A DNA stretch of 64,000 bases, from NCBI GenBank assembly GCA_030158285.1, contig JAOATF010000017.1:5373-69372 (forward strand). The letters run 5' to 3'. Of the stretch, positions 16,765 to 61,339 are shown in pieces. Position 1 is the stretch's first letter; each line of letters opens with the position of its first letter. This DNA comes from Hyphomonadaceae bacterium. GTDB taxonomy: Bacteria > Pseudomonadota > Alphaproteobacteria > Caulobacterales > Hyphomonadaceae. The notes below the pieces were generated by a model. That model searched no databases, had not been told where the DNA came from, and saw only the letters and a list, made by a program, of their open reading frames with translations. The position numbers and the translations under genes are program-made.

Positions 16765-17238
16765 ACCCAGAATGCCTGTCCTTGCTTTCGCTGCCGCGCG
16801 CCGGGTTCTGCGAACCGGTGCGGGGCATTGAGGTCCCCGATGTCGTGCCGGCAGAAATGACCCGAAAACGAGCCCTTCATACCGTGATCCCCTCGTCCCA
16901 CGGGCAGGCTGAGGCCGCCAGTGGAGTGCTGCATTTCGCAGAGCCGAAGCTGGAAATCCAGCAGAAAATGGGCCGCTTTGACTATCTGTAAGGCAGCGCG
17001 ATCCGCGACCGAAATGCCGCCCAACGGGGCCGGTGGGCCGGTGCGCCCCGCAATCGTTTCCGGACGGGCAATGGAACTTAAAATGCTCCGCGGGGGTGAA
17101 TTAAGTCCGTGTTCGCTGTCGGACCCTATATCTAGACTGTTGGCCCAGGGCGGAGGTTTCGTCCCGGGCCTGGAAAGTCAGTACGCGCCTACCCGGCCCC
17201 GGCAGGGGCAAAGTGCGCGGTGGTGGAGCCTGGACTGC

Positions 17239-21178: not shown

Positions 21179-21398
21179 CGTCACGCGCTGCAAACGGCTC
21201 CCCGGTGCAGGAAACCTGCTTCCTGGACCAGCGCATCGGCATGGAGGCCGAAGCACAGGCAACTCTCAGGCTCACCGTTCAAGCGAACTTCGTGCCAGAT
21301 GTGTCCGTTTGGTAGCAAGTGTTGCTGAGCAAGTCGAACACTCCAAGTCACAACGTTGCGACCGCGGTGTTTCGAGGCAACGGCAGTCTAGTCGCCAC

Positions 21399-24676: not shown

Positions 24677-26590
24677 CTATCTGCGGAGCGCGGCCGTCAC
24701 CTTGCCGGCGATCGAGACGGCATCGAGGCCGACGCGCGCCAGAACTTCATCGTTCGCACCCGAGGGCGGGACGCCTTCGATGCCGATGCCGAGGAAGCCG
24801 CGCTGCTTGAGCGCACCCGCTTCGGCAAGCGCTGTGCAGACGCGATCGCCCTGGCCCAGCACGCGATAGTGGTTGTCGATCACCGCCACCAGCTTCGCAG
24901 ATCCGACAGCTTCACCCAGCCACTTGCCATCGACGGTGTTGAGGAAGGGCAGGTTGATGACGCTGGCCGAAACGCCGCGCTGGGCGAGCACGTCGGCTGC
25001 CTGCATCGCGAGGCTCATGCCCAGCAGGCCCGCGCTGACCAGCGCGATGTCGCCGCCTACCTTTGCGACATAGCCTTGGCCAACTTTCGGCGACCACCCG
25101 GCGGGTGGCGTGTGACGCGCGGCGAACGGGATCGAGACAAGGCGGAGATAGCTCGCGCCCCTATGCGTGTTGAGACACCAGTCGAACAGCGGCGCGACTT
25201 CATCCGGATGCGAGGGCTCGACCATCACGAAGTTGGGGATTGAGCCGAGCGCGGAAATCTCGCGCACCGACTGGTGCGAGTGTCCGGGGCCCGCAGGCAG
25301 CACGCCGGAGAGACCGCCGACATAGACGATCCGCGTGTCTTCGGTGGCGTTGTTGTAGATCTGTTCGTTCGGGCGCGTGGACAGGAAGCAGGAGAACGAG
25401 TGCACGACAGGCAGCAGGCCATTGAGCGCCATGCCGCCGGCCTGGCTCACCATGTCCATCTCGGCGATGCCGCATTCGATGAAGCGGTCGGGGTGGGCAT
25501 CGCGGAATGGTTCGAGGCCCATGTCCAGCACAAGGTCCGCATCCAGCGCGATGATACGGTCATTGTGGCCGGCCTGATCGAGCAGGGCGGCGGTGTAGGC
25601 AGGAAACAGCCGGACGGTTTCGCCGGCCGCCGGGGCTGTGGGACGTTCCACCGTTTCGAAGGTGACGCGGGCGACCTTGATGGCGTCGGCGCCGGTATTG
25701 ATGTGCGAGATCAGTTCCTGCGCTGCGCGGGTGTAGTCCTCGGCCTTGGGTGCGCCGGAGTGGAACTGGAAGCGCTCGACGTCGCTGTCGATCGCCACGC
25801 CCTGCATGAAGGACACGCCCTTGCCCTTGACCGTGTTGGCGATGATGACGCTCGGGCGCTTGTCGGCTTCGGCGGACTTCAGCGCCTTCGCGAGAGCGGG
25901 AATGTCGTGTCCGTCGATCGATTGCACGTGCCAGCCGAAGGCCGCGAACTTTGCGTCGAGATCGCCGAGGCTGGAGGTGCGTTCCACCGAATAGTCGGAC
26001 TGGATCTTGTTGTGGTCGACGATGACGGTGATCTCGCCATAGCCGTGGTTGGCAGCCGAGATCAGCGATTCCCAGATCTGGCCTTCCTGCAATTCGCCAT
26101 CGCCGGTCATCACATGGATGCGGGACTGGATGCCCTTGCGACGGTTGGCAAAGGCCATGCCTTTTGCCTTGGAGATGCCCATGCCCAGTGAGCCGGTGTT
26201 GGCGACCATGCCGGGCACGTGCACATCCGGGTGGCCTGGCAGGCCGTCGAGCTTGCGCAGGCGATGGATCTTGTCGAACGGCAGCTTTCCCTGCGCAGTG
26301 AGGATCGCGTAGAGGCCGGGCGCATCATGGCCCTTCGAGGAGAAGTACACGTCCTCGCCCGTCATGCCTTCGAGATAGAGCCACGCCACGACATCCATGC
26401 TGGAAAAGCTGGACCCGATATGGCCCGAGCCGGCATTGGCGATCATGTAGAGCGTATTGAGGCGAGCCATGTCGGCATAAAGCGCCGCGCGCGCAGCAGG
26501 CTCAGCGTTCGACGCAGCCACCCGCTCAAACTCTGCCTTGCCCGCGAAATACAGCGTGCCGGAGACGGCTTCGGTAACCAGATCGCCCAT
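24677..26590 (-). CDS. Fused (N+C) transketolase-family thiamine-diphosphate enzyme
   Basis: GSGHIGSSFSSMDVVAWLY, GHDAPGLYAIL, GSLGMGISKAKGMA, MTGDGELQEGQIWES (ThDP motif). Pyrimidine-binding half: FIECGIAEMDMVSQAGGMAL. GGAG lies 9 nt upstream of ATG 26590; the ORF is open to 26635. Confidence 0.85.
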   Translation of the reverse strand: MGDLVTEAVSGTLYFAGKAEFERVAASNAEPAARAALYADMARLNTLYMIANAGSGHIGSSFSSMDVVAWLYLEGMTGEDVYFSSKGHDAPGLYAILTAQGKLPFDKIHRLRKLDGLPGHPDVHVPGMVANTGSLGMGISKAKGMAFANRRKGIQSRIHVMTGDGELQEGQIWESLISAANHGYGEITVIVDHNKIQSDYSVERTSSLGDLDAKFAAFGWHVQSIDGHDIPALAKALKSAEADKRPSVIIANTVKGKGVSFMQGVAIDSDVERFQFHSGAPKAEDYTRAAQELISHINTGADAIKVARVTFETVERPTAPAAGETVRLFPAYTAALLDQAGHNDRIIALDADLVLDMGLEPFRDAHPDRFIECGIAEMDMVSQAGGMALNGLLPVVHSFSCFLSTRPNEQIYNNATEDTRIVYVGGLSGVLPAGPGHSHQSVREISALGSIPNFVMVEPSHPDEVAPLFDWCLNTHRGASYLRLVSIPFAARHTPPAGWSPKVGQGYVAKVGGDIALVSAGLLGMSLAMQAADVLAQRGVSASVINLPFLNTVDGKWLGEAVGSAKLVAVIDNHYRVLGQGDRVCTALAEAGALKQRGFLGIGIEGVPPSGANDEVLARVGLDAVSIAGKVTAALRR

Positions 26591-26702
26591 TTCCAAGTCT
26601 CCGAATACGCGCCATGCCCTAAGCTGAGCTAGCACGTATTCCGCAGGAGTACGCGTACATGCCAGCTTGGGCTACGGAGATCGACGATCCCCAAGCGAGT
26701 TG

Positions 26703-27239
26703 TCAGGGCTTCGGCTTCTTGATGAACTCAAGATCCGACAGCTCCACATCAACAGGAGCCTTGTCCCCCGGAACGACCGAAAGACGAATGCAGCCATACG
26801 AAGCTGCAAAGGTATGCGAAATTTCAAAGTCTGCTGGCGCGCCCGTACCGACGACATCCGATGTGGCCAGGTCCTCGCCATTCACCTGATCGCAGTGGCG
26901 CATCATTACCAAGCGAACGGGTCGACCGGTCGGAGCTGTCAGCTTGCCCTTAACGACGATATCGTCGCCGGCAGCAACCGGCGCCTTCTCCACAATAACA
27001 GCCAGGTAAGATTTCCCGCCGATCGATGCAGCGCCCGCGGCGCCTTGGCCCGTTGTCGAACCCTCTCCGGTTAGTTGCCAACGGTTCGTGCCGCCCAGCG
27101 ACGTGGGCTGGGCTGCTACGGGAGCCGGCGCCTCTGTGGGAGCAGCGGGGCTTGGTGCGGTCTCGCCGCCACATCCAGCAAGCCCCAAGCTCAGCATAGC
27201 GCCGACACCGGCCAACGCGGCAAGATGCAGATTCTTCAT
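26703..27239 (-). CDS. Lipoprotein, paralogue family member 2 (MRHC motif)
   Basis: Classical lipobox: MKNLHLAALAGVGAMLSLGLAGCGG. A/P-rich linker. The core aligns with the 8978-9628 product, including both conserved Cys. Confidence 0.7.
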   Translation of the reverse strand: MKNLHLAALAGVGAMLSLGLAGCGGETAPSPAAPTEAPAPVAAQPTSLGGTNRWQLTGEGSTTGQGAAGAASIGGKSYLAVIVEKAPVAAGDDIVVKGKLTAPTGRPVRLVMMRHCDQVNGEDLATSDVVGTGAPADFEISHTFAASYGCIRLSVVPGDKAPVDVELSDLEFIKKPKP

Positions 27240-27367
27240 GGATAATCCCCGAGGCACAGGCCGAACTCCCGCTGATCCAGCGGCTTATACTCGAACTCCC
27301 AGAAAAGGCACAACCTTACAACTGTGCCGGGAGCACAGCTGGTGATATTTGGTCACCGGATAGGCGC

Positions 27368-28141
27368 CTAACGTCCTGATCCTGTGATGGCTGGCCTGTC
27401 CACGTCCGGCAAAGTCGCCGAGCTATCGCGTACCATCATTTCCAGCAGGCGCCAGTCGTTGGGTGAGTTCACGTCCAGCCCTTCATCGTCGTGGGTGAGG
27501 AAGGGCGTCAGGACGTCGCCCGCGATCGAGCCCTTGTCGAAGGCGACGCGGGTCCAGGCGATTTCGAGGCTGGCGTTCTGGACGTAGACCTTGGGCAGGG
27601 CGGCATACTGCATCGAATGCCAGGGGGCAGGGGCGCCCTCGGGTTGCATCGGCATCAGGGGATGCATCCGTTCGCCGCGGACGACCCACATCTTGCCGGG
27701 ATGCTGGGCGCAGGGCTCGACGGCGCGCAGGCTGTCGACGCCGTCCTGCCTTACGAACTGCCGCCAGGCGCGCTGTATCGTCTCCGGTTTGCGGCAGGGG
27801 CTGGTGGGACGGAGGATGGAGAAAGCATCGGTTGCCGAGCCATTATCCTTCAGCCAACCGAGCGCGTGCTGGATCCATTCGATGTCGGGAGATTTGTCGC
27901 CGGCGATTTCGGCTGGGCGCAGGAAGGGGATCTCCGCGCCATAGTGCGCGGCGATGGCGGCATACTTGTCAGAGTCAGTGGATACGATGATCCGGGAGAA
28001 CACGCCCGACTGGCGCGCCGCGCAGATCGTGTAGGCAATCAGCGGATGGCCGTTGAGCAGCGCAATATTCTTGTCCGGCACGCGCTTCGAGCCGGAGCGG
28101 GCCGGGATCAGGCAGACGCAGGTGGGATGTTTCGTGCTCAC
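27368..28141 (-). CDS. Cytidylyltransferase, acylneuraminate/CMP-ulosonate synthetase family (CTP_transf_3-like)
   Basis: CLIPARSGSKRVPDKNIALLNGHPLIAYTI, IIVSTDS, FSILRPTSPCR. GTG 28141 overlaps the ALDH stop (GTGA). The long Arg-rich upstream extension of the ORF is implausible as coding. Confidence 0.8.
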   Translation of the reverse strand: MSTKHPTCVCLIPARSGSKRVPDKNIALLNGHPLIAYTICAARQSGVFSRIIVSTDSDKYAAIAAHYGAEIPFLRPAEIAGDKSPDIEWIQHALGWLKDNGSATDAFSILRPTSPCRKPETIQRAWRQFVRQDGVDSLRAVEPCAQHPGKMWVVRGERMHPLMPMQPEGAPAPWHSMQYAALPKVYVQNASLEIAWTRVAFDKGSIAGDVLTPFLTHDDEGLDVNSPNDWRLLEMMVRDSSATLPDVDRPAITGSGR

Positions 28142-29607
28142 AGCCGGTCGGGCTCCGTGATGAGGTAGATGTCTTTCAGATCCGAATAGACGTCGAGCGC
28201 TTCGGTGCCCGGTTCGCGTGTGCCGTTGCCCGAGGCGCGCAGGCCGCCGAAGGGCATATGCGGCTCGGAACCGAACGTTCCAGCGTTGACGACCGCAACG
28301 CCGGTGCGGATGTCGCGGGCGAAGGTCCACGCACGATCAAACGACCGTGTGTGGATGCAGGCGGTGAGGCCGTAGGGCGAGTCATTCGCCATGGCGACGG
28401 CTTCGGCGTAGGTCTCGACACGATAGACATTGCCGACAGGACCGAAGAGTTCGGTGCAGGAGATGGTGTCGCTGTTCGTTGCGCCGTCGATGATCGTGGG
28501 CTCGATGTAGAAGCCGCCTTCCAACCCCGCAGCGCTCGCGCGGTGGCCGCCGCAATGGACACGGGCGCCTTCTGTCCTCGCCTGCTCGATGGCGGTGAGA
28601 ATGTTGGTGAGCTGACGCTCGTTGATGACGGGCCCGAGCGCGCAATCATCGCCGACGCCGAGTTTCAGCGCCTTGGTCTTGTCGATGAACTTCGCAAGGA
28701 ACGCGTCATAAACGGAGGACATCACGATGAAGCGGCTGCCGGCGGCGCAGCGTTGTCCTGCATTGGAGAAGGCGGAGGCGACGGCCCATGTGGCCGCCTT
28801 GTCGAGGTCGGCATCGTCGCACACGATGAAGGCGTTCTTGCCGCCGAGCTCCAGCGACACCTTGGTGAGGCGGCGGCCGGCCTGTTCTGCAATCATGCGG
28901 CCGACGCGCGTCGAACCGGTGAACGAGATCACGTCGACATCAGGATGGGCGGTCAGCGCGCCGCCGACTTCGGCGCCGAGACCCTGCACAACGTTCAGCA
29001 CGCCGGCGGGAACGCCAGCCTGGATCAGCGCGCGCGCCATCCAGTCGGCCGATATGGGCGTGTCCTCCGCGGGCTTGAGAACGACAGCGTTGCCGCAGAT
29101 GAGGGCGGGGAAGACCTTCCATGCGAAGTTGGGCGCCGGCGTGTTGGCGGCCGTGATGAGGGCGGCGACACCACAGGGCTGCCGGACTGTCATCGCGGAC
29201 TTGTTGGGCGCGCCCGAAGGCATGGTGCGGCCAAACAGGCGCTGGCCTTCGCCGGCAAAGAAGCGGCCGCACTGGATCGCGCCGGCAGTTTCACCCTTTG
29301 CGTCCTTGAGGGGCTTGCCGGCTTCCCGCGCCACGATTGCGGAGAGTTCATCAGCGCGGGATTCGATGAGGTTGCAGGCCTGATGCAGGATGCGCCCGCG
29401 CTCGACGGGAGGGACAGCCGCCCAAGCCTGCCACGCAGCCCTGGCGGCCAACACAGCGGCGGTGACCTCTGCTTCGCTGGCAAGATGCAGTTGTGCGATC
29501 GTCTCGCCACTGTGCGGGTCAAGTATGGGCGTCTTGCGTACCGACGAGTCTAGCGCCTTGCCACCGATCAGGGAGCGGACATTCGCAGGGTCAAAATTAT
29601 CTAGCAT
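28138..29607 (-). CDS. NAD(P)-dependent aldehyde dehydrogenase
   Basis: VVLKPAEDTP, FTGSTRVG, SLELGGKNAFIV, NAGQRCAAGSR (catalytic Cys), EPHMPFGG. Confidence 0.88.
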   Translation of the reverse strand: MLDNFDPANVRSLIGGKALDSSVRKTPILDPHSGETIAQLHLASEAEVTAAVLAARAAWQAWAAVPPVERGRILHQACNLIESRADELSAIVAREAGKPLKDAKGETAGAIQCGRFFAGEGQRLFGRTMPSGAPNKSAMTVRQPCGVAALITAANTPAPNFAWKVFPALICGNAVVLKPAEDTPISADWMARALIQAGVPAGVLNVVQGLGAEVGGALTAHPDVDVISFTGSTRVGRMIAEQAGRRLTKVSLELGGKNAFIVCDDADLDKAATWAVASAFSNAGQRCAAGSRFIVMSSVYDAFLAKFIDKTKALKLGVGDDCALGPVINERQLTNILTAIEQARTEGARVHCGGHRASAAGLEGGFYIEPTIIDGATNSDTISCTELFGPVGNVYRVETYAEAVAMANDSPYGLTACIHTRSFDRAWTFARDIRTGVAVVNAGTFGSEPHMPFGGLRASGNGTREPGTEALDVYSDLKDIYLITEPDRL

Positions 29608-29615
29608 CAGCCTCT

Positions 29616-30449
29616 CTACAATGCCAGGAAGCCGCCGTCGACGCGGAGGTCGGCGCCGGTCATGTAGGAGGAGGCGTCGGACATGAGGAAGACCATGGGG
29701 CCTGCATAGTCGCTGGCTTCAGCCATGCCGTGGAGGGCGTCCTTGCCGGCGCGGCGCAGGGGGATCTTCTTCTGGTAGTTCTGCAGGAAGAGGGGGTCCT
29801 GGTTGTTGAACACGCCGGCGAAGGTGACGGAGTTGGCGCGCACGCCCTTGGGTCCCCAGTAGGCCGCGATGTAGCGCGTCAGGTTGTAGAGCGCCGACTT
29901 GGACGCGGAGTAGGCGACGGGCTTGAAAAAGACTTCGCCGCGATCACGCCTGTACTGGTAGAGACCCTGATCCGGTGACACCGACCCATAGATCGAGGCG
30001 ACGTTCACGATCGAGCCGCGCCCCGCGTCCGCCATCGGTTTGCCGAAGACCTGGCAGCACTGAAAGACGCCCTTGGCGTTGACGTCCATCACCTTGTCCC
30101 ACGAGCTTTCGGGATAGTCCTCGAACGGGCCTGTCTCGGCGGCGGAGGAATCCGGCGGGCTGTCGAGCGCGGCGTTGTTGATGAGACCGTGCGGCGCGCC
30201 GAACAGCTTTTCGATTTCCGCGCGGGCGGCTTCCAGTGAGGCGCGCTGGGTGACGTCCGCCTGCACGACGGCGATCTTGCTGGCCGCGTCGCCAAATTTT
30301 GCGCGGGTCACGGCGTCATCGGGGCGGGGCTCGATGACGGCGACGTTGGCGCCGGCGTCGATCAGGGCGAGCGTCACGACGCGGCCGATCTGGCCGTATC
30401 CGCCTGTAACGATGATGCAGCGGCCATCGAGGGAGAAGAGATTGCTCAT
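29616..30449 (-). CDS. Short-chain dehydrogenase/reductase (SDR)
   Basis: CIIVTGGYGQIG (TGxxGxxG), LINNAAL, YSASKSAL (YxxxK). Confidence 0.88.
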   Translation of the reverse strand: MSNLFSLDGRCIIVTGGYGQIGRVVTLALIDAGANVAVIEPRPDDAVTRAKFGDAASKIAVVQADVTQRASLEAARAEIEKLFGAPHGLINNAALDSPPDSSAAETGPFEDYPESSWDKVMDVNAKGVFQCCQVFGKPMADAGRGSIVNVASIYGSVSPDQGLYQYRRDRGEVFFKPVAYSASKSALYNLTRYIAAYWGPKGVRANSVTFAGVFNNQDPLFLQNYQKKIPLRRAGKDALHGMAEASDYAGPMVFLMSDASSYMTGADLRVDGGFLAL

Positions 30450-30473
30450 GGTTGGCTCCAGCTGCTGCGCATG

Positions 30474-30992
30474 TCAGGTCCCGGCGCGTTCGCGCACGCT
30501 GGCGATGGCATCGCACAATTCCCGCACGGCGCCGTCCCCGCCCTTGCGCCGCGTGCGGAAGGCGCCGAGGCTATCGAGGTCTTCATGAGCGTCCGCAACG
30601 ATGACTGGCAAGCCGACCAGTTTCAGAAGCTCGAGGTCATTCACATCATTGCCGATGAAGGCGGCTTCATCCATCGACAGGCCGCGCGCCTTCACGATCT
30701 CGCGGAAGGCGATGACCTTGTCCCGGCAATTCTGCACGCATTCGATCTTCAATTTTTCCGCACGGCGGCTGACGACGGGGTTGGCTTCGGTCGACAGGAT
30801 GAAGCAGTGCACGCCAGCCGCCGCGGCGCGGCGCAGGCCGTAACCTTCAAGGCGGGAACAGCGTACGGCCTCGCGGCCATCCTCGAACACGTAGACCGTG
30901 TTGTCGGTCATCACGCCGTCGAAATCGATGCCGAGCAGGCGGATGCGCGCCGCGCGTTTCGTGAATTCTGGATGGTCTGGAGAAACCTGCAT
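30474..30992 (-). CDS. HAD-IIIA phosphatase, KdsC / ulosonate-phosphate phosphatase family
   Basis: LLGIDFDGVMTDNTVY, RLEGYGLRRAAAAGVHCFILSTE, RAEKLKIE, FIGNDVNDLELLKLVGLPVIVADA. Typical ~170-aa length. Confidence 0.8.
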   Translation of the reverse strand: MQVSPDHPEFTKRAARIRLLGIDFDGVMTDNTVYVFEDGREAVRCSRLEGYGLRRAAAAGVHCFILSTEANPVVSRRAEKLKIECVQNCRDKVIAFREIVKARGLSMDEAAFIGNDVNDLELLKLVGLPVIVADAHEDLDSLGAFRTRRKGGDGAVRELCDAIASVRERAGT

Positions 30993-31012
30993 CGTCCCCG
31001 CCTGGCGTAGCG

Positions 31013-32755
31013 CTAGCCGCCGTATTCGAACGTTGAACCGTTGAGCACACCTTCGCAGATCACGTCCAGCCCCGCATCGCGTCCGGGCATGGCGAGGCTG
31101 GCCGCATTCTCCCGCAGCGACATCAGGCTTTCGCCGCCCTGTTCGGCAAGTGCAGCGACGGGAATGCAGCGCCGGAAGAAGAAATGATAGGCATAGCGCC
31201 GGGCGCGCGCGACAGCGGCGGGAGCGAGGGGCGTAAACGTGTCAGGGTCGGAGAGCAGGGCCCGATAGTCGGCCGGCGAGCTGGCATCATGGGTGAAGCC
31301 TTTCCCGCGCACCCAAGCGTCCCCGGCGACCACGACAGGCATGCCGCGCGCCGAGAGTTCCATGCCCATCTTGGTGTTGAAGATCATGGCGCCGCGGCAC
31401 GCGGCGGCGATCGAATAGGAATTGAGGCTGCTTTCCGGGGGAACGAGCCGGACATTTTCCGGCAAGGTGGGGAAGGCGGTGTTGATGGCGAGGTCGAGCC
31501 TGTCCTGCGCGCGGGGATTGCTGAGCACTTCGCCCGGGTGGCAGCGGATGATCAGCTGGCGGTCGGGGTGGGCCGCGAACCAGCGCACCGTGTCGATGGC
31601 CCAGTCGCGCATGTCGCCATAGGCCGACGAGCGATAGTGCAGGCGTGCATCCCACGCCACGTTCGCGAACAGGGCATAGGCAGGGCGAGCGGGATCGAGA
31701 TGCAGCGAGGCGAGCGCCTTGTCGCGCGAGATGCCTTCGGCGCGCTGGAAGGCGATCCAGTCGGAAGCGCCGGTCACGCGCTGGGCGAGATACTGGTCGA
31801 GCTCCTGATCCTCGGCCGCTCCGAGCGGGCGGTTCCACGCGCTCTCGGGCTCCTCGATCATCGCGCGGTGATAGGTGTCGCCGTGCTGGAAGATCAGGCG
31901 CCCGGTGCGATAGGCGGGATGCCACGTCACAAGCCGGATGCCGCGCCGCTTCACTTGCTCGGCGAGCAGGCCCTGCGGAACATAGATGCCGTGGTGGGCG
32001 ATCACGGCGTCGTACGTGTTTGTGTCGAGTAGCCGTGCTGCGGCGGCGGAGGCCTGATGCGCGGCTTCGAGATAGCGGCGATAGACGGCGGTCGAAGTCT
32101 CGTCGTCGGGAAGGGCAGCCTTGCCGAAGAAGCGCAGGGCGCCGGCCAACGCGTGCTCCTCTCGCGCCGACTTCGGTGGGTTTCCAGTGCCGTGCCGTAC
32201 GGCCTCGGCAGCGAAGGCGCTGGCCGCTTCAAGATCCTCAGGCCGCAGGAAATCCGACAGGCGCAGGGTCGAGATGCCGGTTCCGGCATAGAGACGTTCA
32301 CCGGCTGACTGGCAGACAGAGCAGAAATCGGTGGAGGGGCCAACGCGTGCGAAGCGCGGGACGCTGGGCGCCAGCGTGTGCTCGGCGATCATGCAGGCGC
32401 TGAGCGCCGCATCGCATTGCAGGATGTCGACCTGGGCGCCGCGGAATGTCAGCGCGACGGCAAGCAGGCTGTCCACGGTATTGGCGGTAAAGTGCAGGCC
32501 GACGTGGGTTGCGATCAGGACACGGCGCGTCTTCGGCGCTGCGATCGCTGATTGCCACTCTGCCGTCGCAGCGGAGAGGAGCGTTCGCCAGTCCGGATAG
32601 ACGCCGGGGCGCCGCGTCAGGTTGCGCAGGCGCTCCCGGCGGACCGGCGCATAGAGATCCGACTGGCGGACCGTCTTCGCGAGAGTGGCAAGAAGCCGGT
32701 TCAAGGCATGGCCGTGACTGGAGCCCTCAGGCCTCTCCGACCGCTTGTCGGGCAT
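31013..32755 (-). CDS. Putative glycosyltransferase, paralogue A. Tentatively KpsS/KpsC (Capsule_synth, beta-ulosonic-acid transferase)-like.
   Basis: Clear paralogue of 39538-41223: RVLIATHVGLHF.../KVLVCTNTGMHG...; NVAWDARLHY/NVVWDAQLHY; IIRCHPGE/VVRIHPAE; IFNTKMGMELSARGMPVVVAG/IYGTKMGTELAPLGIPVIVAG. The RxHP motif and the preceding xxWDAxL resemble the HP and QxxxKD-region motifs reported for beta-Kdo transferases. The family assignment was not verified by search. Confidence 0.45.
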   Translation of the reverse strand: MPDKRSERPEGSSHGHALNRLLATLAKTVRQSDLYAPVRRERLRNLTRRPGVYPDWRTLLSAATAEWQSAIAAPKTRRVLIATHVGLHFTANTVDSLLAVALTFRGAQVDILQCDAALSACMIAEHTLAPSVPRFARVGPSTDFCSVCQSAGERLYAGTGISTLRLSDFLRPEDLEAASAFAAEAVRHGTGNPPKSAREEHALAGALRFFGKAALPDDETSTAVYRRYLEAAHQASAAAARLLDTNTYDAVIAHHGIYVPQGLLAEQVKRRGIRLVTWHPAYRTGRLIFQHGDTYHRAMIEEPESAWNRPLGAAEDQELDQYLAQRVTGASDWIAFQRAEGISRDKALASLHLDPARPAYALFANVAWDARLHYRSSAYGDMRDWAIDTVRWFAAHPDRQLIIRCHPGEVLSNPRAQDRLDLAINTAFPTLPENVRLVPPESSLNSYSIAAACRGAMIFNTKMGMELSARGMPVVVAGDAWVRGKGFTHDASSPADYRALLSDPDTFTPLAPAAVARARRYAYHFFFRRCIPVAALAEQGGESLMSLRENAASLAMPGRDAGLDVICEGVLNGSTFEYGG

Positions 32756-33818
32756 CGCGCTCGGTCGCGCCCACCGTCTCGAACTTGATCGTTTCATCTT
32801 CCGTCAGCGGCGTGAGCAGCTTCTTGCCGATGAAGAAATCGAGGAAGTAGGGCGGGGTGCCATCGCCCGGCGACTTGAAGGCGATGTCCTTCGCGGTGAG
32901 GACATGGCCGGCCGGCAGGGCGGTCTGCGCCACAAGCTTCTTGCCCATCTTGATGAGCGGGTCGCGCTCGGACGGGTAGCTGGTCTTCACGCCATCACCC
33001 AGGGCGATCTTCGCGCGCTGGAGGTCGCGCACGAGACGACGCATGCCGTTCGGCTCGAGCGAGAAAGCCTGGTCCGTGCCCTTCCAGGCGCGGTTGAGCG
33101 TGAAGTGTTTTTCAAGCGCCCGCGCGCCGCACATGTAGCCGACGAGGGCCATGGCAATGCCGCTGTCATGCGAGGAGAAGCCGATCACCGCTTCCGGGAA
33201 TTCCTTCCGGAACGTCTCGATGACGCGGATGTTGAGCTCTTCGAATTTCGGCGGATAGCCGGAGGTGCACTGCATGATGCAGAGCTGCTTGTTGATCGGA
33301 TAGACCGCCTCGAACATGCGGCGGACATCCTTCAGCGTGCCGCCGCCCGTGGAGATGAACATCGGCTTGCCGAACGAGGCGATGTACTTGATCAGCGGAA
33401 TGGTCTGCAGGTCGCCCGAGGCGATCTTGTAGGCCGGCATGTCGATGCTCTCGAGCAGGTCGGCCGAGGCATAGTCCCACGCTGTCGAGAACATCGTGAT
33501 GCCGATCTTCTTCGAATAGTCGCGCAGCTCGATGTATTGTTCGCGGCTGAACTCCAGCTTCTCGCGGTGTTCGCCATAGGTAGGGGCGTAGGCGTTCTCG
33601 GAATTGTAGACTTCCGCGTACTTGTCCTTGGTGTAGAGCGTCGAATTCTGGCGCTTCTGCAGTTTCACTGAATGCGCGCCGCAGGACTTGGCGGCGTCGA
33701 ACAGCTGCTTGCACTTCTCGACATCGCCCTCATGGTTCTGACCAATCTCGGCGATGACGTACATGTCGCTGTCGTCGTCGATCGTGATTCCATCGACAAC
33801 CATTTTTGGGCCACTCAT
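32727..33818 (-). CDS. NeuB-family ulosonic-acid (sialic/Kdn-type) synthase with C-terminal SAF domain
   Basis: YVIAEIGQNHEGDVEKCKQLFDAAKSCGAHSVKLQKR, AYKIASGDL, MFISTGGGT, GFSSHD. SAF-like LVAQTALPAGHVLTAKDIAFKSPGDG. AGGTGA RBS upstream of ATG 33818. Confidence 0.85.
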   Translation of the reverse strand: MSGPKMVVDGITIDDDSDMYVIAEIGQNHEGDVEKCKQLFDAAKSCGAHSVKLQKRQNSTLYTKDKYAEVYNSENAYAPTYGEHREKLEFSREQYIELRDYSKKIGITMFSTAWDYASADLLESIDMPAYKIASGDLQTIPLIKYIASFGKPMFISTGGGTLKDVRRMFEAVYPINKQLCIMQCTSGYPPKFEELNIRVIETFRKEFPEAVIGFSSHDSGIAMALVGYMCGARALEKHFTLNRAWKGTDQAFSLEPNGMRRLVRDLQRAKIALGDGVKTSYPSERDPLIKMGKKLVAQTALPAGHVLTAKDIAFKSPGDGTPPYFLDFFIGKKLLTPLTEDETIKFETVGATERDARQAVGEA

Positions 33819-38689: not shown

Positions 38690-39529
38690 ATGAGCACGAA
38701 AGCTGAGCGGTTTGGTCCGCTGCCGAGCACCGCGGTCCTTCCCGAGCCGGTCTACACGACGAACGCCCGCCGCTCGTCCTTCGTGTGCTCGCCGCCTGTG
38801 AAGCAGGGCGACACGGAATGGTATCCGCCCGTGATGATCGGCGCCGCCGCCATCGGCGGAGCGATCGCGCGTGATTGCGAAGTCTACATTCACCGCGCGC
38901 TCGATATCATGTCGCGGCTCGAGCCGGATGCCTACCTGCAGTACCTCAACGGCTATTATCGCGAAGGGTTGCGCCGCTTTGGACGCGACTGGGGCTATGC
39001 AGACATCGTCACGGCCGTTCTTGGCCTGTCGGAACGCCTGAAGCCGGAAAGCTATCTCGAGATTGGCGTGCGCCGCGGACGGAGCGTGTGTTCCGTGGCC
39101 AGCATCCGTCCCGACATCGACATCGCGATGTTCGACATGTGGGTCACCAACTATGCCGGCATGGACAATCCCGGTGAGACCCACGTCCGCGCGGAGCTCG
39201 ACAAGTTCGGCCACAAGGGCAAGCGCGAGTTCATCAATGGCAACTCGCACGTCACGTTGAAGAAGTACTTCGCGGACAATCCCAACGCCTATTTCGACAT
39301 GATCACCGTCGATGGCGACCATTCCAACCTGGGCGCCGCCGAGGATATTGCCGACGTGCTGCCGCGCCTGTCGATCGGCGGATGCGTGGTGTTCGACGAT
39401 ACCTGCAACCCCAACGTGGCGGGACTGAGCGAAGTCTGGCGCCGGATGGTCGGCGACAATCCGCGTTTTGCCGCCTACACGTATTCCGATGTCGGGTACG
39501 GCATCGGATTCGCAATCCGCAAATACTGA
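38690..39529 (+). CDS. Class I SAM-dependent methyltransferase (Methyltransf_24/CmcI-like)
   Basis: YLEIGVRRGRSV (motif I-like), FDMITVDGDHSNLGAAEDI, LSIGGCVVFDD. Paralogous to the C-terminal domain of the 43651-47439 product. Confidence 0.75.
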   Translation: MSTKAERFGPLPSTAVLPEPVYTTNARRSSFVCSPPVKQGDTEWYPPVMIGAAAIGGAIARDCEVYIHRALDIMSRLEPDAYLQYLNGYYREGLRRFGRDWGYADIVTAVLGLSERLKPESYLEIGVRRGRSVCSVASIRPDIDIAMFDMWVTNYAGMDNPGETHVRAELDKFGHKGKREFINGNSHVTLKKYFADNPNAYFDMITVDGDHSNLGAAEDIADVLPRLSIGGCVVFDDTCNPNVAGLSEVWRRMVGDNPRFAAYTYSDVGYGIGFAIRKY

Positions 39530-39537
39530 TCGCGGCG

Positions 39538-41223
39538 ATGTCGACGCTGACAGCGCCGCCGGCTTTTCCAGGCGCCAAGGCGCCTTTTGCGCCGGAAAAA
39601 AATTTCCCGAACTGGCCAGACCTTGTGGCCGCGTCCGGTGATGTCTGGAAGCAGGCGATCGCGCGCGCGCGTGGACCCAAGGTCCTGGTCTGCACCAATA
39701 CCGGCATGCACGGCGCCGTATCGACTTTCGACACGGTGCTTTCGGTCGGGCTCACCCTCGCGGGCGCACGGACATCGCGCGTGTTCTGCGATGGCATCAT
39801 GCCCGCCTGTCTGATGTCCACGTTTGGCGATGCGACACCGCCTGACATGATTGCTGACAGAGGGCTTGTCGCGCGGCTGTGCAAGGCGTGCCTCAACCGC
39901 GGCACGAACTCGGCCCGGCCTGTGGGCTTGCCCGAGCACAGGCTCTCGAGCTTCCTGAAGCGCGAGGATTACAAGGAAGCCGAGGCGCTTGCGGGGCGAA
40001 TTCCCGTTGCCGAAATCCGGTCATGGACGCTCGATGGCATCGCCGTTGGCGAGCATGCTTACGCCGGCGCGCTGCGCTACTTCGCGACGGGCGATCTGGT
40101 GGGGCAGGTGCGTGGCAAGGACGTCCTGCGGCGCTACCTCGAAGGCGCGATCCTCACGGCGCGCGCCTATGACAGGTTGATCGCCGCCGAACGGCCGGAC
40201 GTGGCTGTGCTCCATCATGGCATCTACAGTCCGCAGGGTGTGGCCGCCGAAGTGTGCCGAAAGCACGGCGTCCGGGTGGTGACCTGGGTCGTGGCCTACC
40301 GCAAGAACTGCTTCATTCTCAGCCACGACGACACCTATCACCACACGCTGATGACCGAGCCCGTCGAACAGTGGGAAGGTCTTGCCCTGTCCGAAGCGCA
40401 GACTTCGCTGGTCCACAGCTATCTCGCGAGCCGTGCGTCGGGCGGGCGCGACTGGATATATTTCCACAAGGATGCCGGACAGGATTTCGAGGCGCTTGCC
40501 TCAGCCAAAGGCATCGACCGCTCGAAGCCGGTGGTGAGCGCCTTCACGAACGTGGTGTGGGACGCCCAGCTTCACTATCCCGCCAACGTCTATTCCGGGA
40601 TGATCGAATGGCTGGTTGAAACCGTCCGGCATTTTGCGGCGCGCCCGGACATCGAGTTCGTCGTGCGAATCCATCCTGCTGAAACGCGCGGCGCGATCAA
40701 GTCACGGCAGCTCGCGGTCGATGAGATCGCAAAGGCATTTCCGAACCTGCCGCGCAACATCCACGTCATCGGGCCGGAAGAGGAGGCAAACTCCTATGCG
40801 CTGGCGAAGGCGAGCAATGCCACGATCATCTACGGCACAAAGATGGGCACGGAGCTCGCGCCGCTCGGCATTCCGGTCATCGTCGCCGGTGAAGCGTGGA
40901 TCAAGAACAAGGGCGTGACCCGCGACCCACGCGATCGCGCCGACTACCTGGCGCTACTGGACCAGCTGCCGATCGCTTCAGGCGCCTGGGCGCCGGATGT
41001 CGCGCGCGCGGAGAAGTATGCTTACCACTTCTTCTTCCGGCGCATGATCCCGCTGCCGTTCCTGGAGCCGAATGGCACCGGCGCCATGTTCGATCTCAAG
41101 GTCGACGCCTTGCAGGACCTGTCACCGGGGCGCTGGCCCGGGTTCGATGCGATCACGAACGGGATCCTGAATGGAGCACCGTTCGTCTATCGCGCCGAGG
41201 ATTTCGGCGTACACGACGCCTAG
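39538..41223 (+). CDS. Putative glycosyltransferase, paralogue B. Tentatively KpsS/KpsC (Capsule_synth)-like.
   Basis: See 31013-32755. Both share a Cys cluster (FCDGIMPAC...LCKACLNRG versus QCDAALSAC...FCSVCQSAG). Start taken at MSTLTAPP (39538); the ORF is open from 39382, overlapping the methyltransferase. Confidence 0.45.
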   Translation: MSTLTAPPAFPGAKAPFAPEKNFPNWPDLVAASGDVWKQAIARARGPKVLVCTNTGMHGAVSTFDTVLSVGLTLAGARTSRVFCDGIMPACLMSTFGDATPPDMIADRGLVARLCKACLNRGTNSARPVGLPEHRLSSFLKREDYKEAEALAGRIPVAEIRSWTLDGIAVGEHAYAGALRYFATGDLVGQVRGKDVLRRYLEGAILTARAYDRLIAAERPDVAVLHHGIYSPQGVAAEVCRKHGVRVVTWVVAYRKNCFILSHDDTYHHTLMTEPVEQWEGLALSEAQTSLVHSYLASRASGGRDWIYFHKDAGQDFEALASAKGIDRSKPVVSAFTNVVWDAQLHYPANVYSGMIEWLVETVRHFAARPDIEFVVRIHPAETRGAIKSRQLAVDEIAKAFPNLPRNIHVIGPEEEANSYALAKASNATIIYGTKMGTELAPLGIPVIVAGEAWIKNKGVTRDPRDRADYLALLDQLPIASGAWAPDVARAEKYAYHFFFRRMIPLPFLEPNGTGAMFDLKVDALQDLSPGRWPGFDAITNGILNGAPFVYRAEDFGVHDA

Positions 41224-51814: not shown

Positions 51815-52225
51815 TCAGGCGTACGTATAGTATTTGTGCAGGAAATAGCTGGAGATCGCCGGCGCGCCGACGCCGAACAGGTGGGCGACCTCGAACATGT
51901 GCCACTCCCAGCCGATGGCCGGCAGCACCAGCCGCGCCATGATCGAGCTGACAGCCCAGGCCAGCGTCGCGCCGAAGATGTTCACCCAGATGAAGCGCAC
52001 CACGCGCTTGCCCTCGATGCCGCCGCCTCCGAACAGCATCTTCTGGAACAGGAAGAAGCCCACCACCATGCCGACCATGTAGGCCAGCACGACAGCCACC
52101 TCGAACGGCATCACGAAGTCGAGCAGGTAGCGCGCAACCAGGTTGGCCAGCGCGGCGATCCCGCCCACGCCAAGGAAGCGCAGGAATTCCCAGAACCCTC
52201 CGCCTGACTTGATCGCCGCCATCAT
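51815..52225 (-). CDS. GtrA-family small membrane protein (second copy)
   Basis: FLRFLGVGGIAALANLVARYLL plus three further helices; 136 aa. The ATG overlaps the upstream TGA (ATGA). Confidence 0.8.
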   Translation of the reverse strand: MMAAIKSGGGFWEFLRFLGVGGIAALANLVARYLLDFVMPFEVAVVLAYMVGMVVGFFLFQKMLFGGGGIEGKRVVRFIWVNIFGATLAWAVSSIMARLVLPAIGWEWHMFEVAHLFGVGAPAISSYFLHKYYTYA

Positions 52226-60117: not shown

Positions 60118-60369
60118 GCAATACTCCCGTTCCCCGCATCCGAACCCTAGCGCGGCCTCCGTTGCGCCTCAACAGCAAGATGACGCGCATGCCTTTCGGG
60201 GCGAGCGCGCCTTTGCCGTCTCTCGCCGGGGGTGAGGCTAGGGCCATCACCTTGCCCCGGCCACCCTTGAAAGCAGTGCAGGGCGCCCGTGCCCGAGGCG
60301 CCTTGGGCCACCTTGAGGCAGGCGAGGGCGTATCGTGACTTTGCCCGCAATCTGGTCCAAACCCGGCGC

Positions 60370-61329: not shown

Positions 61330-61339
61330 AATCCGTCCC

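What the first reader, a model, noticed from the sequence alone, without database searches (positions are those of the whole stretch)
24677..33818. Eight-gene minus-strand operon: NeuB-type synthase, KdsC-like phosphatase and CMP-transferase, plus SDR, aldehyde dehydrogenase and fused transketolase. A non-canonical activated ulosonic (ulosaric?) acid pathway.
Seen in sequence. The genes are tightly packed. The neuB-like gene overlaps the KpsS-like gene. Gaps of 20, 24 and 8 nt separate the HAD, SDR and ALDH genes. ALDH and the cytidylyltransferase share GTGA. A lipoprotein gene and a 637-aa fused transketolase-family gene follow.

Established knowledge. Synthase plus phosphatase plus cytidylyltransferase is the 9-phosphate-type route known for Kdn and Neu5Ac, in which an aldose phosphate condenses with PEP. 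The canonical Neu5Ac, Leg, Pse and Kdn pathways do not need a transketolase or an aldehyde dehydrogenase.

Inference, speculative. The ThDP enzyme may supply or remodel a short aldose-phosphate acceptor; a short transaldolase/FSA gene also sits in the locus at 55077. SDR plus ALDH could oxidise a terminal CH2OH via the aldehyde to a carboxylate, giving an ulosaric-type acid. Alternatively the ThDP enzyme could install a two-carbon branch, as in yersiniose-type sugars. Either route would yield a CMP-activated acidic sugar not covered by the described nonulosonate pathways.
Basis: partly seen in the sequence, partly recalled or inferred. Interest (0 to 1): 0.72.

Follow-up and report, generated by a model that had tools for sequence, protein, structure and literature searches.

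The report
Sialic-type sugar pathway with tail-trimming module
This is a conserved but undescribed bacterial gene set that builds a sialic-acid-like sugar and probably cuts two carbons off its tail with a remodelled transketolase, giving a new doubly acidic cell-surface sugar.

Summary
All eight minus-strand genes, their overlaps and their gaps are as described.

The set is not a chance neighbourhood. NeuB, SDR, ALDH, a NeuA-type cytidylyltransferase (CMPt), a transketolase-like (TK-like) enzyme and often a KdsC-type phosphatase (HAD) and a KpsC-like glycosyltransferase recur together. I saw this in 61 genome loci from several phyla and in 80 metagenome loci.

Two results change the interpretation.

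1. The TK-like enzyme keeps every cofactor and ketol-handling residue of human transketolase. It has lost all four sugar-phosphate-binding residues and the Asp that reads the distal hydroxyl. This holds in 88 orthologues, while a genuine split transketolase keeps them. A role in supplying aldose phosphates is therefore unlikely.

2. The SDR–TK–ALDH trio also occurs as a contiguous block, in that order, next to a canonical NeuC–NeuB–NeuA sialic acid set. There the aldose comes from UDP-GlcNAc.

The trio therefore most likely acts on a feature shared by Kdn and Neu5Ac, the C7–C9 glycerol tail. The proposed steps are SDR oxidation at C8, TK-like removal of C8–C9, and ALDH oxidation of C7. The product would be a CMP-activated 3-deoxy-hept-2-ulosaric acid, an isomer of plant Dha.

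This chemistry is inferred, not shown. The lipoprotein and the distant FSA gene are not conserved parts.

The parts
32727..33818 (-). NeuB-family PEP-aldose condensing synthase (363 aa), a distinct clade. Probable ulosonate-9-phosphate (Kdn-9-P-type) synthase.
   Evidence: PF03102 249.6 bits plus SAF. Below the NeuB and PseI equivalog cut-offs. Scores 142-159 bits (E 1e-40 to 1e-45) against solved NeuB/SpsE, far below its own orthologues. Metal and PEP residues are conserved, but NmNeuB R314 is replaced by Ser, E134 by Asp and F288 by Lys; the last two are invariant in 54 orthologues.
31013..32755 (-). KpsC/KpsS-like GT-B glycosyltransferase (580 aa). Probable transferase for the CMP-activated product.
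   Evidence: Weak PF05159 hit, 20.8 bits. No PDB sequence hit. AF2 model pLDDT 91.3. By TM-score normalised to the target, the best Foldseek matches are KpsC beta-Kdo transferases, 0.52-0.56. Invariant RxHPxE motif. Sits directly after TK in many loci.
30474..30992 (-). KdsC-type (C0) HAD phosphatase (172 aa). Removes the terminal phosphate of the synthase product.
   Evidence: KdsC NF007019 118.5 bits; TIGR01670 104.1 bits against a cut-off of 106.95; Kdn-9-P phosphatase NF058599 95.9 bits. DFDGVMTD motif. Adjacent to NeuB in 31 of 61 loci.
29616..30449 (-). Classical SDR (277 aa), probably NAD+-dependent. Proposed oxidation of the penultimate tail hydroxyl to a ketol.
   Evidence: adh_short_C2 142 bits. 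Nearest families and structures are gluconate 5-dehydrogenase, KduD, mannonate oxidoreductase, galactitol dehydrogenase and mannitol 2-dehydrogenase. S152/Y180/K184 are conserved and an acidic residue ends beta-2. Present in 52 of 61 loci.
28138..29607 (-). Aldehyde dehydrogenase (489 aa). Proposed oxidation of the new terminal aldehyde to a carboxylate.
   Evidence: PF00171 530.6 bits. ELGGKN and GQRCAAG motifs. Top hits are alpha-ketoglutarate semialdehyde dehydrogenase and succinate-semialdehyde dehydrogenase, but not discriminating. Present in 39 of 61 loci; lies directly after TK in the second architecture.
27368..28141 (-). NeuA-type CMP-ulosonate synthetase (257 aa). Its start overlaps the ALDH stop (GTGA).
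   Evidence: PF02348. Scores 99.8 bits against NeuA 9ftb but only about 35 bits against KdsB. GTGA overlap read directly. Immediately upstream of TK in 34 of 63 TK-centred loci.
27307..27328 (-). Terminator-like hairpin followed by a T-run, between CMPt and the lipoprotein gene.
   Evidence: Weak evidence: the site count is not above shuffled controls.
26703..27257 (-). Lipobox protein (184 aa) with a beta-sandwich domain. An accessory passenger, not a conserved part of the pathway.
   Evidence: No Pfam or NCBIfam hit. Weak homologues (27-36% identity) in L005, L015 and L140, and clustered with an ORF in L001. Single-sequence AF2 model pLDDT 63, with weak CBM4/22-like Foldseek hits.
24677..26590 (-). 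Transketolase-family ThDP enzyme (637 aa) with the sugar-phosphate pocket lost. Proposed ketol-cleaving enzyme acting on the oxidised sugar tail.
   Evidence: All three TK domains are present. Below the TK equivalog cut-off, 344 bits against 488. H37, H77, R100/101, H110, D155, N185, K244, H258 and E366 are conserved. R318 becomes hydrophobic, S345 becomes D, H416 becomes L/Y, D424 becomes P and R474 becomes S/I/N. The control split transketolase 6YAJ keeps these residues.
39382..41223 (+). Second KpsC-like paralogue, 35% identical to the first.
   Evidence: Falls in the same cluster and alignment. No Pfam or NCBIfam hit.

Best explanation
The locus encodes a dedicated route to a CMP-activated acidic sugar for an ABC-transporter-type surface polysaccharide.

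**Steps supported by family-level evidence.**
1. The NeuB-clade synthase condenses PEP with an aldose 6-phosphate, most simply mannose-6-P, to give a Kdn-9-P-like product.
2. The KdsC-type phosphatase frees the terminal hydroxyl.
3. A NeuA-type enzyme makes the CMP sugar.
4. KpsC-like GT-B transferases install it.

**Inferred steps.** Before activation, or on the CMP sugar, a three-enzyme module trims the C7-C9 glycerol tail.
1. The NAD+-type SDR oxidises the penultimate hydroxyl (C8). This creates a terminal CHOH-CO-CH2OH ketol with the D-threo geometry of a transketolase donor.
2. The remodelled transketolase cleaves C7-C8 and removes a two-carbon glycolaldehyde unit.
3. The ALDH oxidises the resulting C7 aldehyde to a carboxylate.

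The predicted product is a 3-deoxy-hept-2-ulosaric acid, C7H10O8. If the precursor is Kdn it has the L-arabino configuration and is an isomer of plant Dha. In the related NeuC-NeuB-NeuA loci the same module would give the 5-acetamido analogue.
For: **Conserved linkage.**
- Among 61 NeuB-anchored genome loci, SDR occurs in 52, CMPt in 43, ALDH in 39, HAD in 31, TK in 30 and the Kps-like gene in 24. Many of these loci are truncated.
- Among TK-anchored metagenome loci with at least 5 kb upstream, SDR occurs in 19 of 20, CMPt in 19, ALDH in 17 and NeuB in 16.

**TK-like enzyme.**
- Cofactor and ketol-end residues are invariant, while all distal and phosphate-site residues are replaced, in 30 plus 58 orthologues.
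- Human TK and the split TK 6YAJ keep them.
- The active-site residue list comes from PMC8016368.

**Second architecture.**
- SDR-TK-ALDH is contiguous and colinear with the proposed reaction order, and is followed by NeuC-NeuB-CMPt, in at least 11 loci.
- NeuC passes its equivalog cut-off.
- The NeuB there keeps R314, whereas the window's clade does not.
- The module is therefore portable between two routes that share only the nonulosonate tail.

**Other points.**
- The SDR's nearest relatives all oxidise the penultimate carbon of polyols or sugar acids.
- CMPt is NeuA-like, not KdsB-like.
- Markers of the 9-deoxy Leg/Pse routes are rare nearby, in 11 of 143 loci.
- There is a precedent for dehydrogenase, then transketolase, then semialdehyde dehydrogenase: the proposed 5-keto-gluconate to tartrate route (PMC7970118; PMC12016104).
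- From established stereochemistry, C7 and C6 of 8-keto-Kdn or 8-keto-Neu5Ac read from the ketol end have the 3S,4R (D-threo) configuration that transketolase donors require.
Against: - No biochemical or glycan-structure data exist for any host, and I found no paper on this module.
- Some loci have SDR-ALDH-CMPt without a nearby TK (L014, L016, L017, L019, L059). Others have SDR-CMPt-TK without ALDH (L048, L052, L064, L085), or NeuB-CMPt-TK alone (L050, L051). Either the parts are split across the genome, as shown for CP030885.1, or the steps are not obligatorily coupled.
- The fate of the two-carbon unit is unknown. The ALDH could instead detoxify released glycolaldehyde.
- The tight CMPt-TK pairing may mean that TK acts on the CMP sugar, so the order of steps is open.
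- The SDR and ALDH family resemblances are all below equivalog cut-offs and are not specific.
- The residue mapping rests on alignments at about 30% identity.
- The aldose substrate, and hence chain length and stereochemistry, is not determined.
Confidence: 0.42

Rival explanations
1. The ThDP enzyme supplies or remodels a short aldose phosphate for NeuB. After dephosphorylation, SDR and ALDH oxidise the terminal CH2OH directly, via the aldehyde, to a carboxylate. The product is a full-length ulosaric acid.
For: - The gene order NeuB-HAD-SDR-ALDH-CMPt is colinear with this scheme.
- Five loci have exactly this set without a TK (L014, L016, L017, L019, L059).
- The ALDH resembles semialdehyde dehydrogenases.
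Against: - The TK-like enzyme has lost R318, S345, H416 and R474, the phosphate site, in all 88 orthologues.
- The trio also accompanies NeuC-NeuB-NeuA, where no aldose phosphate is needed.
- TK is embedded between SDR and ALDH in that architecture.
- The SDR's relatives oxidise secondary (omega-1) hydroxyls, not primary ones.
Confidence: 0.15
2. Chain extension or branching. The SDR makes an aldehyde or ketone on the sugar, and the TK-like enzyme adds a two-carbon ketol unit from a donor such as hydroxypyruvate. The product is a higher-carbon or branched ulosonic acid, analogous to yersiniose.
For: - The TK-like enzyme keeps all the residues needed to form and transfer the ThDP-glycolaldehyde intermediate.
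- CMPt-TK adjacency fits action on an activated sugar.
Against: - ALDH would compete for the aldehyde acceptor and has no role, yet it is conserved and lies adjacent to TK.
- From my own knowledge, known C2-branching enzymes are acetolactate-synthase-type or E1-type and act on NDP-4-keto sugars. No such partner genes were seen in the conserved set.
Confidence: 0.1
3. The trio makes a non-sugar substituent, for example glycolate or glycerate from a ketose through TK and ALDH, which decorates an otherwise ordinary Kdn or Neu5Ac.
For: TK-derived glycolyl units are known in natural-product pathways (my own knowledge). The locus is rich in modifying enzymes such as methyl-, acetyl- and sulfotransferases.
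Against: - No acyl-activating enzyme, carrier protein or acyltransferase is conserved with the trio.
- The lost phosphate pocket argues against a ketose-phosphate donor.
Confidence: 0.08
4. An ordinary Kdn (or Kdo-like) pathway whose neighbours SDR, ALDH and TK serve unrelated metabolism.
For: Synthase, phosphatase and cytidylyltransferase alone suffice for CMP-Kdn (established knowledge of the Kdn-9-P route).
Against: - The linkage of SDR, ALDH and TK to NeuB and CMPt persists across Alphaproteobacteria, Chloroflexi, delta-proteobacteria, Latescibacterota and others, and in two gene orders.
- The TK clade has a specific remodelled pocket.
- The window carries separate KdsD and KdsB genes for Kdo.
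Confidence: 0.05

Closest known systems
Kdn-9-phosphate route (Bacteroides thetaiotaomicron BT1713-BT1715; vertebrate NANS/NANP/CMAS)
   Same: It has a NeuB-family synthase, a KdsC-type C0 HAD phosphatase and a NeuA-type CMP synthetase. No aminotransferase or NeuC is present, so a non-amino, phosphorylated aldose is likely.
   Different: - The synthase is a separate clade, with R314 replaced by Ser and below the equivalog cut-offs.
- The phosphatase scores 95.9 bits against a Kdn-9-P phosphatase cut-off of 180.
- Three extra conserved enzymes are present: SDR, ALDH and the TK-like enzyme.
NeuC-NeuB-NeuA sialic acid pathway
   Same: Related metagenome loci carry exactly this set next to the same SDR-TK-ALDH block. 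CMPt in the window is nearest to NeuA.
   Different: The window has no NeuC. Its NeuB lacks the N-acetyl-binding Arg314, and it has a phosphatase instead.
Proposed 5-keto-D-gluconate to tartrate route (dehydrogenase, transketolase, semialdehyde dehydrogenase)
   Same: The logic is the same. The penultimate hydroxyl of a sugar acid is oxidised to a ketol, a transketolase removes C2, and an SSADH-like ALDH makes the new carboxylate (PMC7970118; PMC12016104).
   Different: That route uses promiscuous or engineered housekeeping transketolase on a free hexonate. Here a dedicated TK clade with a rebuilt distal pocket is linked to nonulosonate genes.
Canonical transketolase (human TKT; split TK of Carboxydothermus hydrogenoformans)
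   Same: It has the short-type three-domain architecture. It also shares the ThDP/Mg2+ motif, the catalytic Glu and the His residues that hold the donor C1-OH.
   Different: R318, S345, H416, D424 and R474 are all replaced. It scores below the TK equivalog cut-off.
KpsC/KpsS beta-Kdo transferases (GT107)
   Same: It has a GT-B-like fold, and by TM-score normalised to the target its closest matches are KpsC structures. It carries an HP motif, has a weak Capsule_synth hit, and is linked to a CMP-ulosonate pathway.
   Different: It has no sequence-level match to any solved structure. At 580 aa it is a single unit with a long N-terminal helical region. Its donor is probably not Kdo.
Dha (3-deoxy-D-lyxo-hept-2-ulosaric acid) of plant RG-II and prasinophyte walls
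   Same: It has the same formula and class as the predicted product, a C7 2-keto-3-deoxy diacid in pyranose form. Dha biosynthesis and its activated form are still unknown (PMC3355719; PMC12168206).
   Different: The stereochemistry expected from a NeuB-type condensation of mannose-6-P is L-arabino, not D-lyxo. No plant link was tested.

Membership tests
NeuB family (PF03102), sialic-acid-type synthases | NeuB TIM-barrel domain plus C-terminal SAF/AFP-like domain | tested here: met
   PF03102 249.6 bits and PF08666 33.2 bits.
NeuB family (PF03102), sialic-acid-type synthases | Metal-binding His215/His236 and PEP-binding Lys53, Lys129, Ser132, Ser154 and Ser213 (N. meningitidis numbering; list recalled from memory) | tested here: met
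   All are conserved in the window protein and in 54 of 54 orthologues.
N-acetylneuraminate synthase proper (TIGR03569 equivalog) | Score above the curated cut-off, and Arg314 of the AFP domain that contacts ManNAc | tested here: not met
   266.6 bits against a cut-off of 399.65. R314 is replaced by Ser, or by S/V/I/C across the clade, whereas the NeuC-linked NeuBs keep Arg in 6 of 6.
Kdn-9-P / Neu5Ac-9-P three-enzyme route | C0-type HAD phosphatase of the KdsC/YrbI subfamily with the DxDGVxTD nucleophile motif | tested here: inconclusive
   The motif DFDGVMTD is present. TIGR01670 scores 104.1 bits against 106.95, and the Kdn-9-P phosphatase equivalog 95.9 against 180. This places it at subfamily level only.
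Kdn-9-P / Neu5Ac-9-P three-enzyme route | The synthase uses mannose-6-P or ManNAc-6-P | not testable with these tools
   The support is indirect. NeuC is absent, HAD is present, R314 is lost, and ManC, GMD and GDP-fucose synthase genes lie in the window.
CMP-sialate synthetase (NeuA-type CTP_transf_3) | CTP_transf_3 fold, closer to NeuA than to KdsB | tested here: met
   NeuA 9ftb scores 99.8 bits and 1eyr 71.4 bits, against about 35 bits for KdsB. The score is below the PseF equivalog cut-off.
Transketolase (EC 2.2.1.1) | ThDP/Mg2+ binding motif (GDG...N), the cofactor-activating Glu, and the His residues at the donor C1-OH | tested here: met
   H37, H77, H110, D155, N185, H258 and E366 are conserved in 30 of 30 genome-locus orthologues, and in all 45 arch-1-type and 13-14 of 14 arch-2 metagenome orthologues.
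Transketolase (EC 2.2.1.1) | Sugar-phosphate pocket (human R318, S345, H416, R474) and the Asp424 that reads the distal hydroxyl | tested here: not met
   All five are replaced in the clade, with S345 to D and D424 to P near-invariant. The control 6YAJ keeps Ser, His, Asp and Arg. It scores 344 bits against a TK cut-off of 488.
Beta-Kdo glycosyltransferases (KpsC/KpsS, GT107) | GT-B-like fold of KpsC and the HP motif at the CMP site | tested here: inconclusive
   TM-score normalised to the target is 0.52-0.56 against KpsC, but generic GT-B proteins score similar E-values. The RxHPxE motif is invariant. PF05159 scores 20.8 bits against a cut-off of 20. The catalytic Asp was not mapped.
Aldehyde dehydrogenase superfamily | Catalytic Cys (GQxC) and general-base Glu (ELGGK) | tested here: met
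   GQRCAAG and ELGGKN are in the sequence. PF00171 scores 530.6 bits. No equivalog cut-off is reached.
Classical SDR | TGxxxGxG motif and the Ser-Tyr-Lys triad | tested here: met
   VTGGYGQIG is present. S152, Y180 and K184 are conserved in 40 orthologues.

The most novel reading that the evidence does not exclude
A dedicated, phosphate-pocket-less transketolase clade carries out ThDP-dependent ketol cleavage of the glycerol tail of nonulosonic acids (Kdn or Neu5Ac). I know of no described precedent for this reaction. Together with an SDR and an ALDH it would create a previously unknown class of bacterial C7 dicarboxylic 'truncated sialic acids'. These would be CMP-activated and polymerised by KpsC-like transferases. 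The module is widespread in environmental Alphaproteobacteria, Chloroflexi and other phyla.
Probability: 0.4. Interest if true: 0.85.

Novelty: new variant of a known kind. Interest (0 to 1): 0.72.

Why it matters
If the model is right, it would have four consequences.
- It adds a new monosaccharide class, C7 ulosaric acids derived from sialic-type sugars, to bacterial surface glycans.
- It assigns a new reaction type to the transketolase family.
- It shows how a portable three-gene module can re-tailor two different nonulosonate pathways.
- It offers a concrete enzymatic logic for making 3-deoxy-heptulosaric acids. For the plant sugar Dha, the pathway and the activated donor remain unknown after decades (PMC3355719, PMC12168206).

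Even if the chemistry differs, the linkage defines a large uncharacterised pathway family with testable candidates in cultured strains.

Tried and rejected
- **NeuB exact look-up.** The exact look-up of the NeuB product found nothing. The locus was recovered through the Kps-like protein instead.
- **Organism name.** The nearest named relatives are Hyphomonas, Henriciella and Parvularculaceae, with NeuB 72-73% identical.
- **Kps-like sequence search.** A profile search of the Kps-like family against PDB sequences found nothing real.
- **Literature.** Searches for NeuB or nonulosonic acid with transketolase found nothing relevant. A broad 'ulosaric' plus LPS/capsule search was uninformative.
- **c98 substitute.** A zinc-ADH/GFO fusion (c98) looked like a possible ALDH substitute in ALDH-less loci, but it occurs in only three loci.
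- **FSA/TalC at 55077.** Rejected as a pathway part.
- **C8 precursor.** A Kdo-like C8 precursor was considered. I reject it as less likely because CMPt is NeuA-like, trimming a C8 sugar would destroy the pyranose ring carbon, and the window has its own KdsD and KdsB.
- **Dha itself as the product.** Rejected on stereochemical grounds. This is an inference from NeuB-type facial selectivity.
- **Promoter and terminator scan.** It gave nothing above shuffled background.

Full report
**1. The observation**

The minus strand between 24677 and 33818 carries the eight ORFs described. Domain searches give the following.

| Gene | Coordinates | Evidence |
|---|---|---|
| NeuB-family synthase | 32727-33818 | PF03102 plus SAF |
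| Kps-like protein | 31013-32797 (594-aa ORF) | weak Capsule_synth hit |
| KdsC-like HAD | 30474-30992 | |
| Classical SDR | 29616-30449 | |
| Aldehyde dehydrogenase | 28138-29607 | |
| CTP_transf_3 cytidylyltransferase (CMPt) | 27368-28141 | |
| Lipobox protein | 26703-27257 | no family hit |
| Three-domain transketolase-family protein | 24677-26590 | |

- An identical contig in a public assembly carries the same gene calls: 580, 172, 277, 489, 257 and 184 aa, then the TK.
- The 29-nt NeuB/Kps overlap, the 20-, 24- and 8-nt gaps and the GTGA overlap of ALDH and CMPt are all real.
- The last two genes are looser. Gaps of 110 and 112 nt flank the lipoprotein gene, and a hairpin plus T-run follows CMPt. 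That scan is not above shuffled background.
- GT2, epimerase and GT4 genes continue the same strand upstream.
- 'Operon' is therefore plausible for the first six genes and unproven for all eight.

**2. Context**

The window is one large ABC-transporter-type polysaccharide locus. It contains:
- Wzm/Wzt and a Wzy_C (O-antigen ligase-like) protein;
- many GT2 and GT4 glycosyltransferases, two sulfotransferase-domain proteins, methyl- and acetyltransferases;
- GMD and GDP-fucose synthase, an Rml set and ManC;
- a long coiled-coil methyltransferase.

It also holds a separate KdsD/KdsB pair at 60289-62143. The cluster in question is therefore not the housekeeping Kdo route.

The FSA/TalC gene at 55077 passes the housekeeping equivalog cut-off. 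It did not turn up in the clustering of ORFs from the genome loci.

**3. Is the gene set more than a neighbourhood?**

A genome scan with NeuB returned 63 loci, with NeuB 47-73% identical. Most are Alphaproteobacteria. Others are Chloroflexi/SAR202, Geobacteraceae and other delta-proteobacteria, Gemmatimonadota, Latescibacterota, Verrucomicrobia and a cyanobacterium.

tblastn and all-against-all clustering gave these counts among the 61 loci with a NeuB cluster member. Many of the loci are truncated.

| Gene | Loci of 61 |
|---|---|
| SDR | 52 |
| CMPt | 43 |
| ALDH | 39 |
| HAD | 31 |
| TK | 30 |
| Kps-like | 24 |

When the order is shuffled, three pairs stay together: NeuB-HAD, SDR-ALDH and CMPt-TK. 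The Kps-like gene often follows TK directly.

A metagenome scan anchored on the TK gave 80 loci.
- Among the 63 with at least 1 kb upstream, CMPt is the immediate upstream gene in 34 and SDR in 16.
- Among the 20 with at least 5 kb upstream, SDR occurs in 19, CMPt in 19, ALDH in 17 and a NeuB in 16.

So the TK clade is essentially confined to these clusters.

The lipoprotein has weak homologues (27-36% identity) in only three loci, L005, L015 and L140, plus a clustered ORF in L001. Its low-confidence model looks like a CBM4/22-type beta-sandwich.

**4. The transketolase-like enzyme**

It aligns over its full length with human TK but scores below the TK equivalog cut-off.

I mapped the human active-site set listed in PMC8016368 onto 30 orthologues from genomes and 58 from metagenomes.

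| Group | Human residues | State in the clade |
|---|---|---|
| Cofactor binding and donor C1/C2 end | H37, H77, R100/101, H110, D155, N185, K244, H258, E366 | invariant, apart from single deviations in one of the 14 arch-2 sequences |
| Neighbouring Pyr domain, holding the distal part of the sugar phosphate | R318 | hydrophobic |
| | S345 | Asp (invariant) |
| | H416 | Leu, Tyr or Phe |
| | D424 | Pro |
| | R474 | Ser, Ile or Asn |

- The genuine split transketolase of C. hydrogenoformans (6YAJ) keeps Ser, His, Asp and Arg at these positions.
- The phosphate-binding role of the four residues is established knowledge from yeast, E. coli and human TK structures.
- My inference is that the enzyme still makes a ThDP-ketol intermediate, but its substrate is not a short sugar phosphate.

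**5. The second architecture**

At least eleven metagenome loci carry SDR-TK-ALDH as a contiguous block, followed by NeuC-NeuB-CMPt. The TK there is about 50-54% identical to the window's.
- In L102 the NeuC passes its equivalog cut-off, 316.6 bits against 235.9. The NeuB scores 373.9 bits against 399.65.
- These NeuBs keep Arg314 and Glu134 of the N. meningitidis enzyme.
- The window's clade has Ser/Val/Ile/Cys at position 314. Asp134 and Lys288 are invariant in 54 sequences.
- The TK signature is the same in both architectures.

The same trio is therefore attached to two different ways of making a nonulosonate. One is a phosphorylated non-amino route, which is the window's. The other is the UDP-GlcNAc to ManNAc route. 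The trio should act on what these routes share.

Markers of the 9-deoxy Leg/Pse routes (DegT, PglF-like) are rare near these clusters, in 11 of 143 loci.

**6. The other enzymes**

- **CMPt.** It is much closer to NeuA than to KdsB.
- **SDR.** Its nearest families and structures are gluconate 5-dehydrogenase, KduD, mannonate oxidoreductase, galactitol dehydrogenase and mannitol 2-dehydrogenase. All of these oxidise the carbon next to a terminal CH2OH. An acidic residue at the end of beta-2 suggests NAD+. This is a weak inference.
- **ALDH.** It is nearest to alpha-ketoglutarate- and succinate-semialdehyde dehydrogenases, but only marginally.
- **Kps-like protein.** It has no sequence match in the PDB. 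Its confident model has pLDDT 91.3 and a GT-B fold. By TM-score normalised to the target, its closest matches are KpsC beta-Kdo transferases. It carries an invariant HP motif. A second paralogue lies at 39382-41223.

**7. Mechanism proposed**

Steps supported at family level:
1. PEP plus an aldose 6-phosphate gives an ulosonate 9-phosphate (NeuB clade).
2. The phosphate is removed (HAD).
3. The sugar is CMP-activated (NeuA-type enzyme).
4. It is transferred (KpsC-like GTs).

Inferred steps:
1. The SDR oxidises C8-OH to give a terminal ketol.
2. The TK-like enzyme cleaves C7-C8.
3. The ALDH oxidises C7 to a carboxylate.

Supporting logic:
- From established stereochemistry, C7 and C6 of Kdn or Neu5Ac read from the C9 end are D-threo. 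This is what transketolase donors require.
- C6-O is the ring oxygen, which fits the loss of the Asp that normally reads that hydroxyl.
- The phosphatase step becomes necessary because a ketol needs a free terminal OH.
- The product would be C7H10O8, a 3-deoxy-hept-2-ulosaric acid. It would have the L-arabino configuration if derived from Kdn, which makes it an isomer of Dha rather than Dha itself.
- The same dehydrogenase, transketolase and semialdehyde-dehydrogenase logic has been proposed for 5-keto-gluconate to tartrate (PMC7970118; PMC12016104).

**8. Weak points**

- No experiment or glycan structure exists, and no paper was found.
- Variant loci lack TK, ALDH or SDR. In one complete genome the parts are split by about 200 kb, so absence from a 20-kb window is not absence from the genome. 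The coupling is nevertheless not proven.
- The acceptor or fate of the C2 unit is unknown, and ALDH might act on glycolaldehyde instead.
- The order of steps relative to CMP activation, or even relative to NeuB, is open. Trimming the aldose first would give the same product.
- The residue mapping relies on alignments at about 30% identity. It agrees with the PDB alignment and with the numbering in PMC8016368, apart from an Arg100/101 offset.

**9. Verdict**

This is a non-canonical route to an activated acidic sugar, probably an ulosaric acid.
- The ThDP enzyme is most likely a tail-cleaving enzyme rather than a supplier of aldose phosphate.
- The lipoprotein and the FSA gene are not part of the conserved pathway.
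- I class the finding as a new variant of nonulosonate biosynthesis.

Noticed in passing
window 43651-47439 (+): A 1262-aa protein that is mostly coiled coil, with a C-terminal Methyltransf_24 domain, just upstream of Wzt/Wzm. It resembles WbdD-type chain-terminating 'molecular rulers' of ABC-dependent O-antigens. Related loci carry FkbM-methyltransferase plus coiled-coil proteins (cluster c29).
   Followed up: partly
window 60289-62143 (+): A KdsD/KpsF gene (SIS plus CBS domains) and a full-length KdsB-like cytidylyltransferase. This is a separate canonical CMP-Kdo supply in the same window.
   Followed up: partly
window 16921-19704 (+) and 19754-21262 (-): A 927-aa sulfotransferase-GT2 fusion and a Sulfotransfer_2 protein with a coiled coil. 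The glycan is probably sulfated. The 20-22 kb stretch has lower GC (0.59) than its surroundings.
   Followed up: no
window 52222-53781 (-): A HAD-UbiA fusion that looks like a decaprenyl-phosphate phosphoribosyltransferase. A 136-aa ORF follows it. This hints at a polyprenyl-phospho-pentose donor.
   Followed up: no
window 56745-57878 (-): An AGE-family (PF07221, GlcNAc 2-epimerase/isomerase) gene near ManC and FSA/TalC. It could interconvert hexoses that feed mannose metabolism. It was not seen next to the NeuB cluster in the related loci I mapped.
   Followed up: no
window 156-3560 (+): A 1134-aa RTX calcium-binding repeat protein at the left edge of the polysaccharide locus.
   Followed up: no
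L048, L052, L064 (downstream of TK): ALDH-less variants (NeuB-HAD-SDR-CMPt-TK) in SAR202 and Latescibacterota carry a roughly 720-aa zinc-ADH plus GFO/IDH/MocA fusion instead. It might reduce or oxidise the aldehyde and give a different end product.
   Followed up: partly
L070 (CP030885.1, 608538-630472): In one complete Rhodospirillaceae genome, the HAD-SDR-...-ALDH-CMPt-TK-Kps set lies about 200 kb from the orthologous NeuB. It also lies next to a third-type NeuB with DegT, GNAT and PglF-like genes, a Pse/Leg-like route. MBOAT and methyltransferase genes are inserted between SDR and ALDH.
   Followed up: partly
L007-L009, L013 (Henriciella isolates): These loci have NeuB-Kps-HAD-SDR only. 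No ALDH, CMPt or TK lies within 10 kb. A 418-aa protein of unknown function (cluster c53) precedes NeuB.
   Followed up: no
window 62304-63641 (+): An RPE65-family carotenoid oxygenase at the right edge. It appears unrelated to the glycan locus.
   Followed up: no
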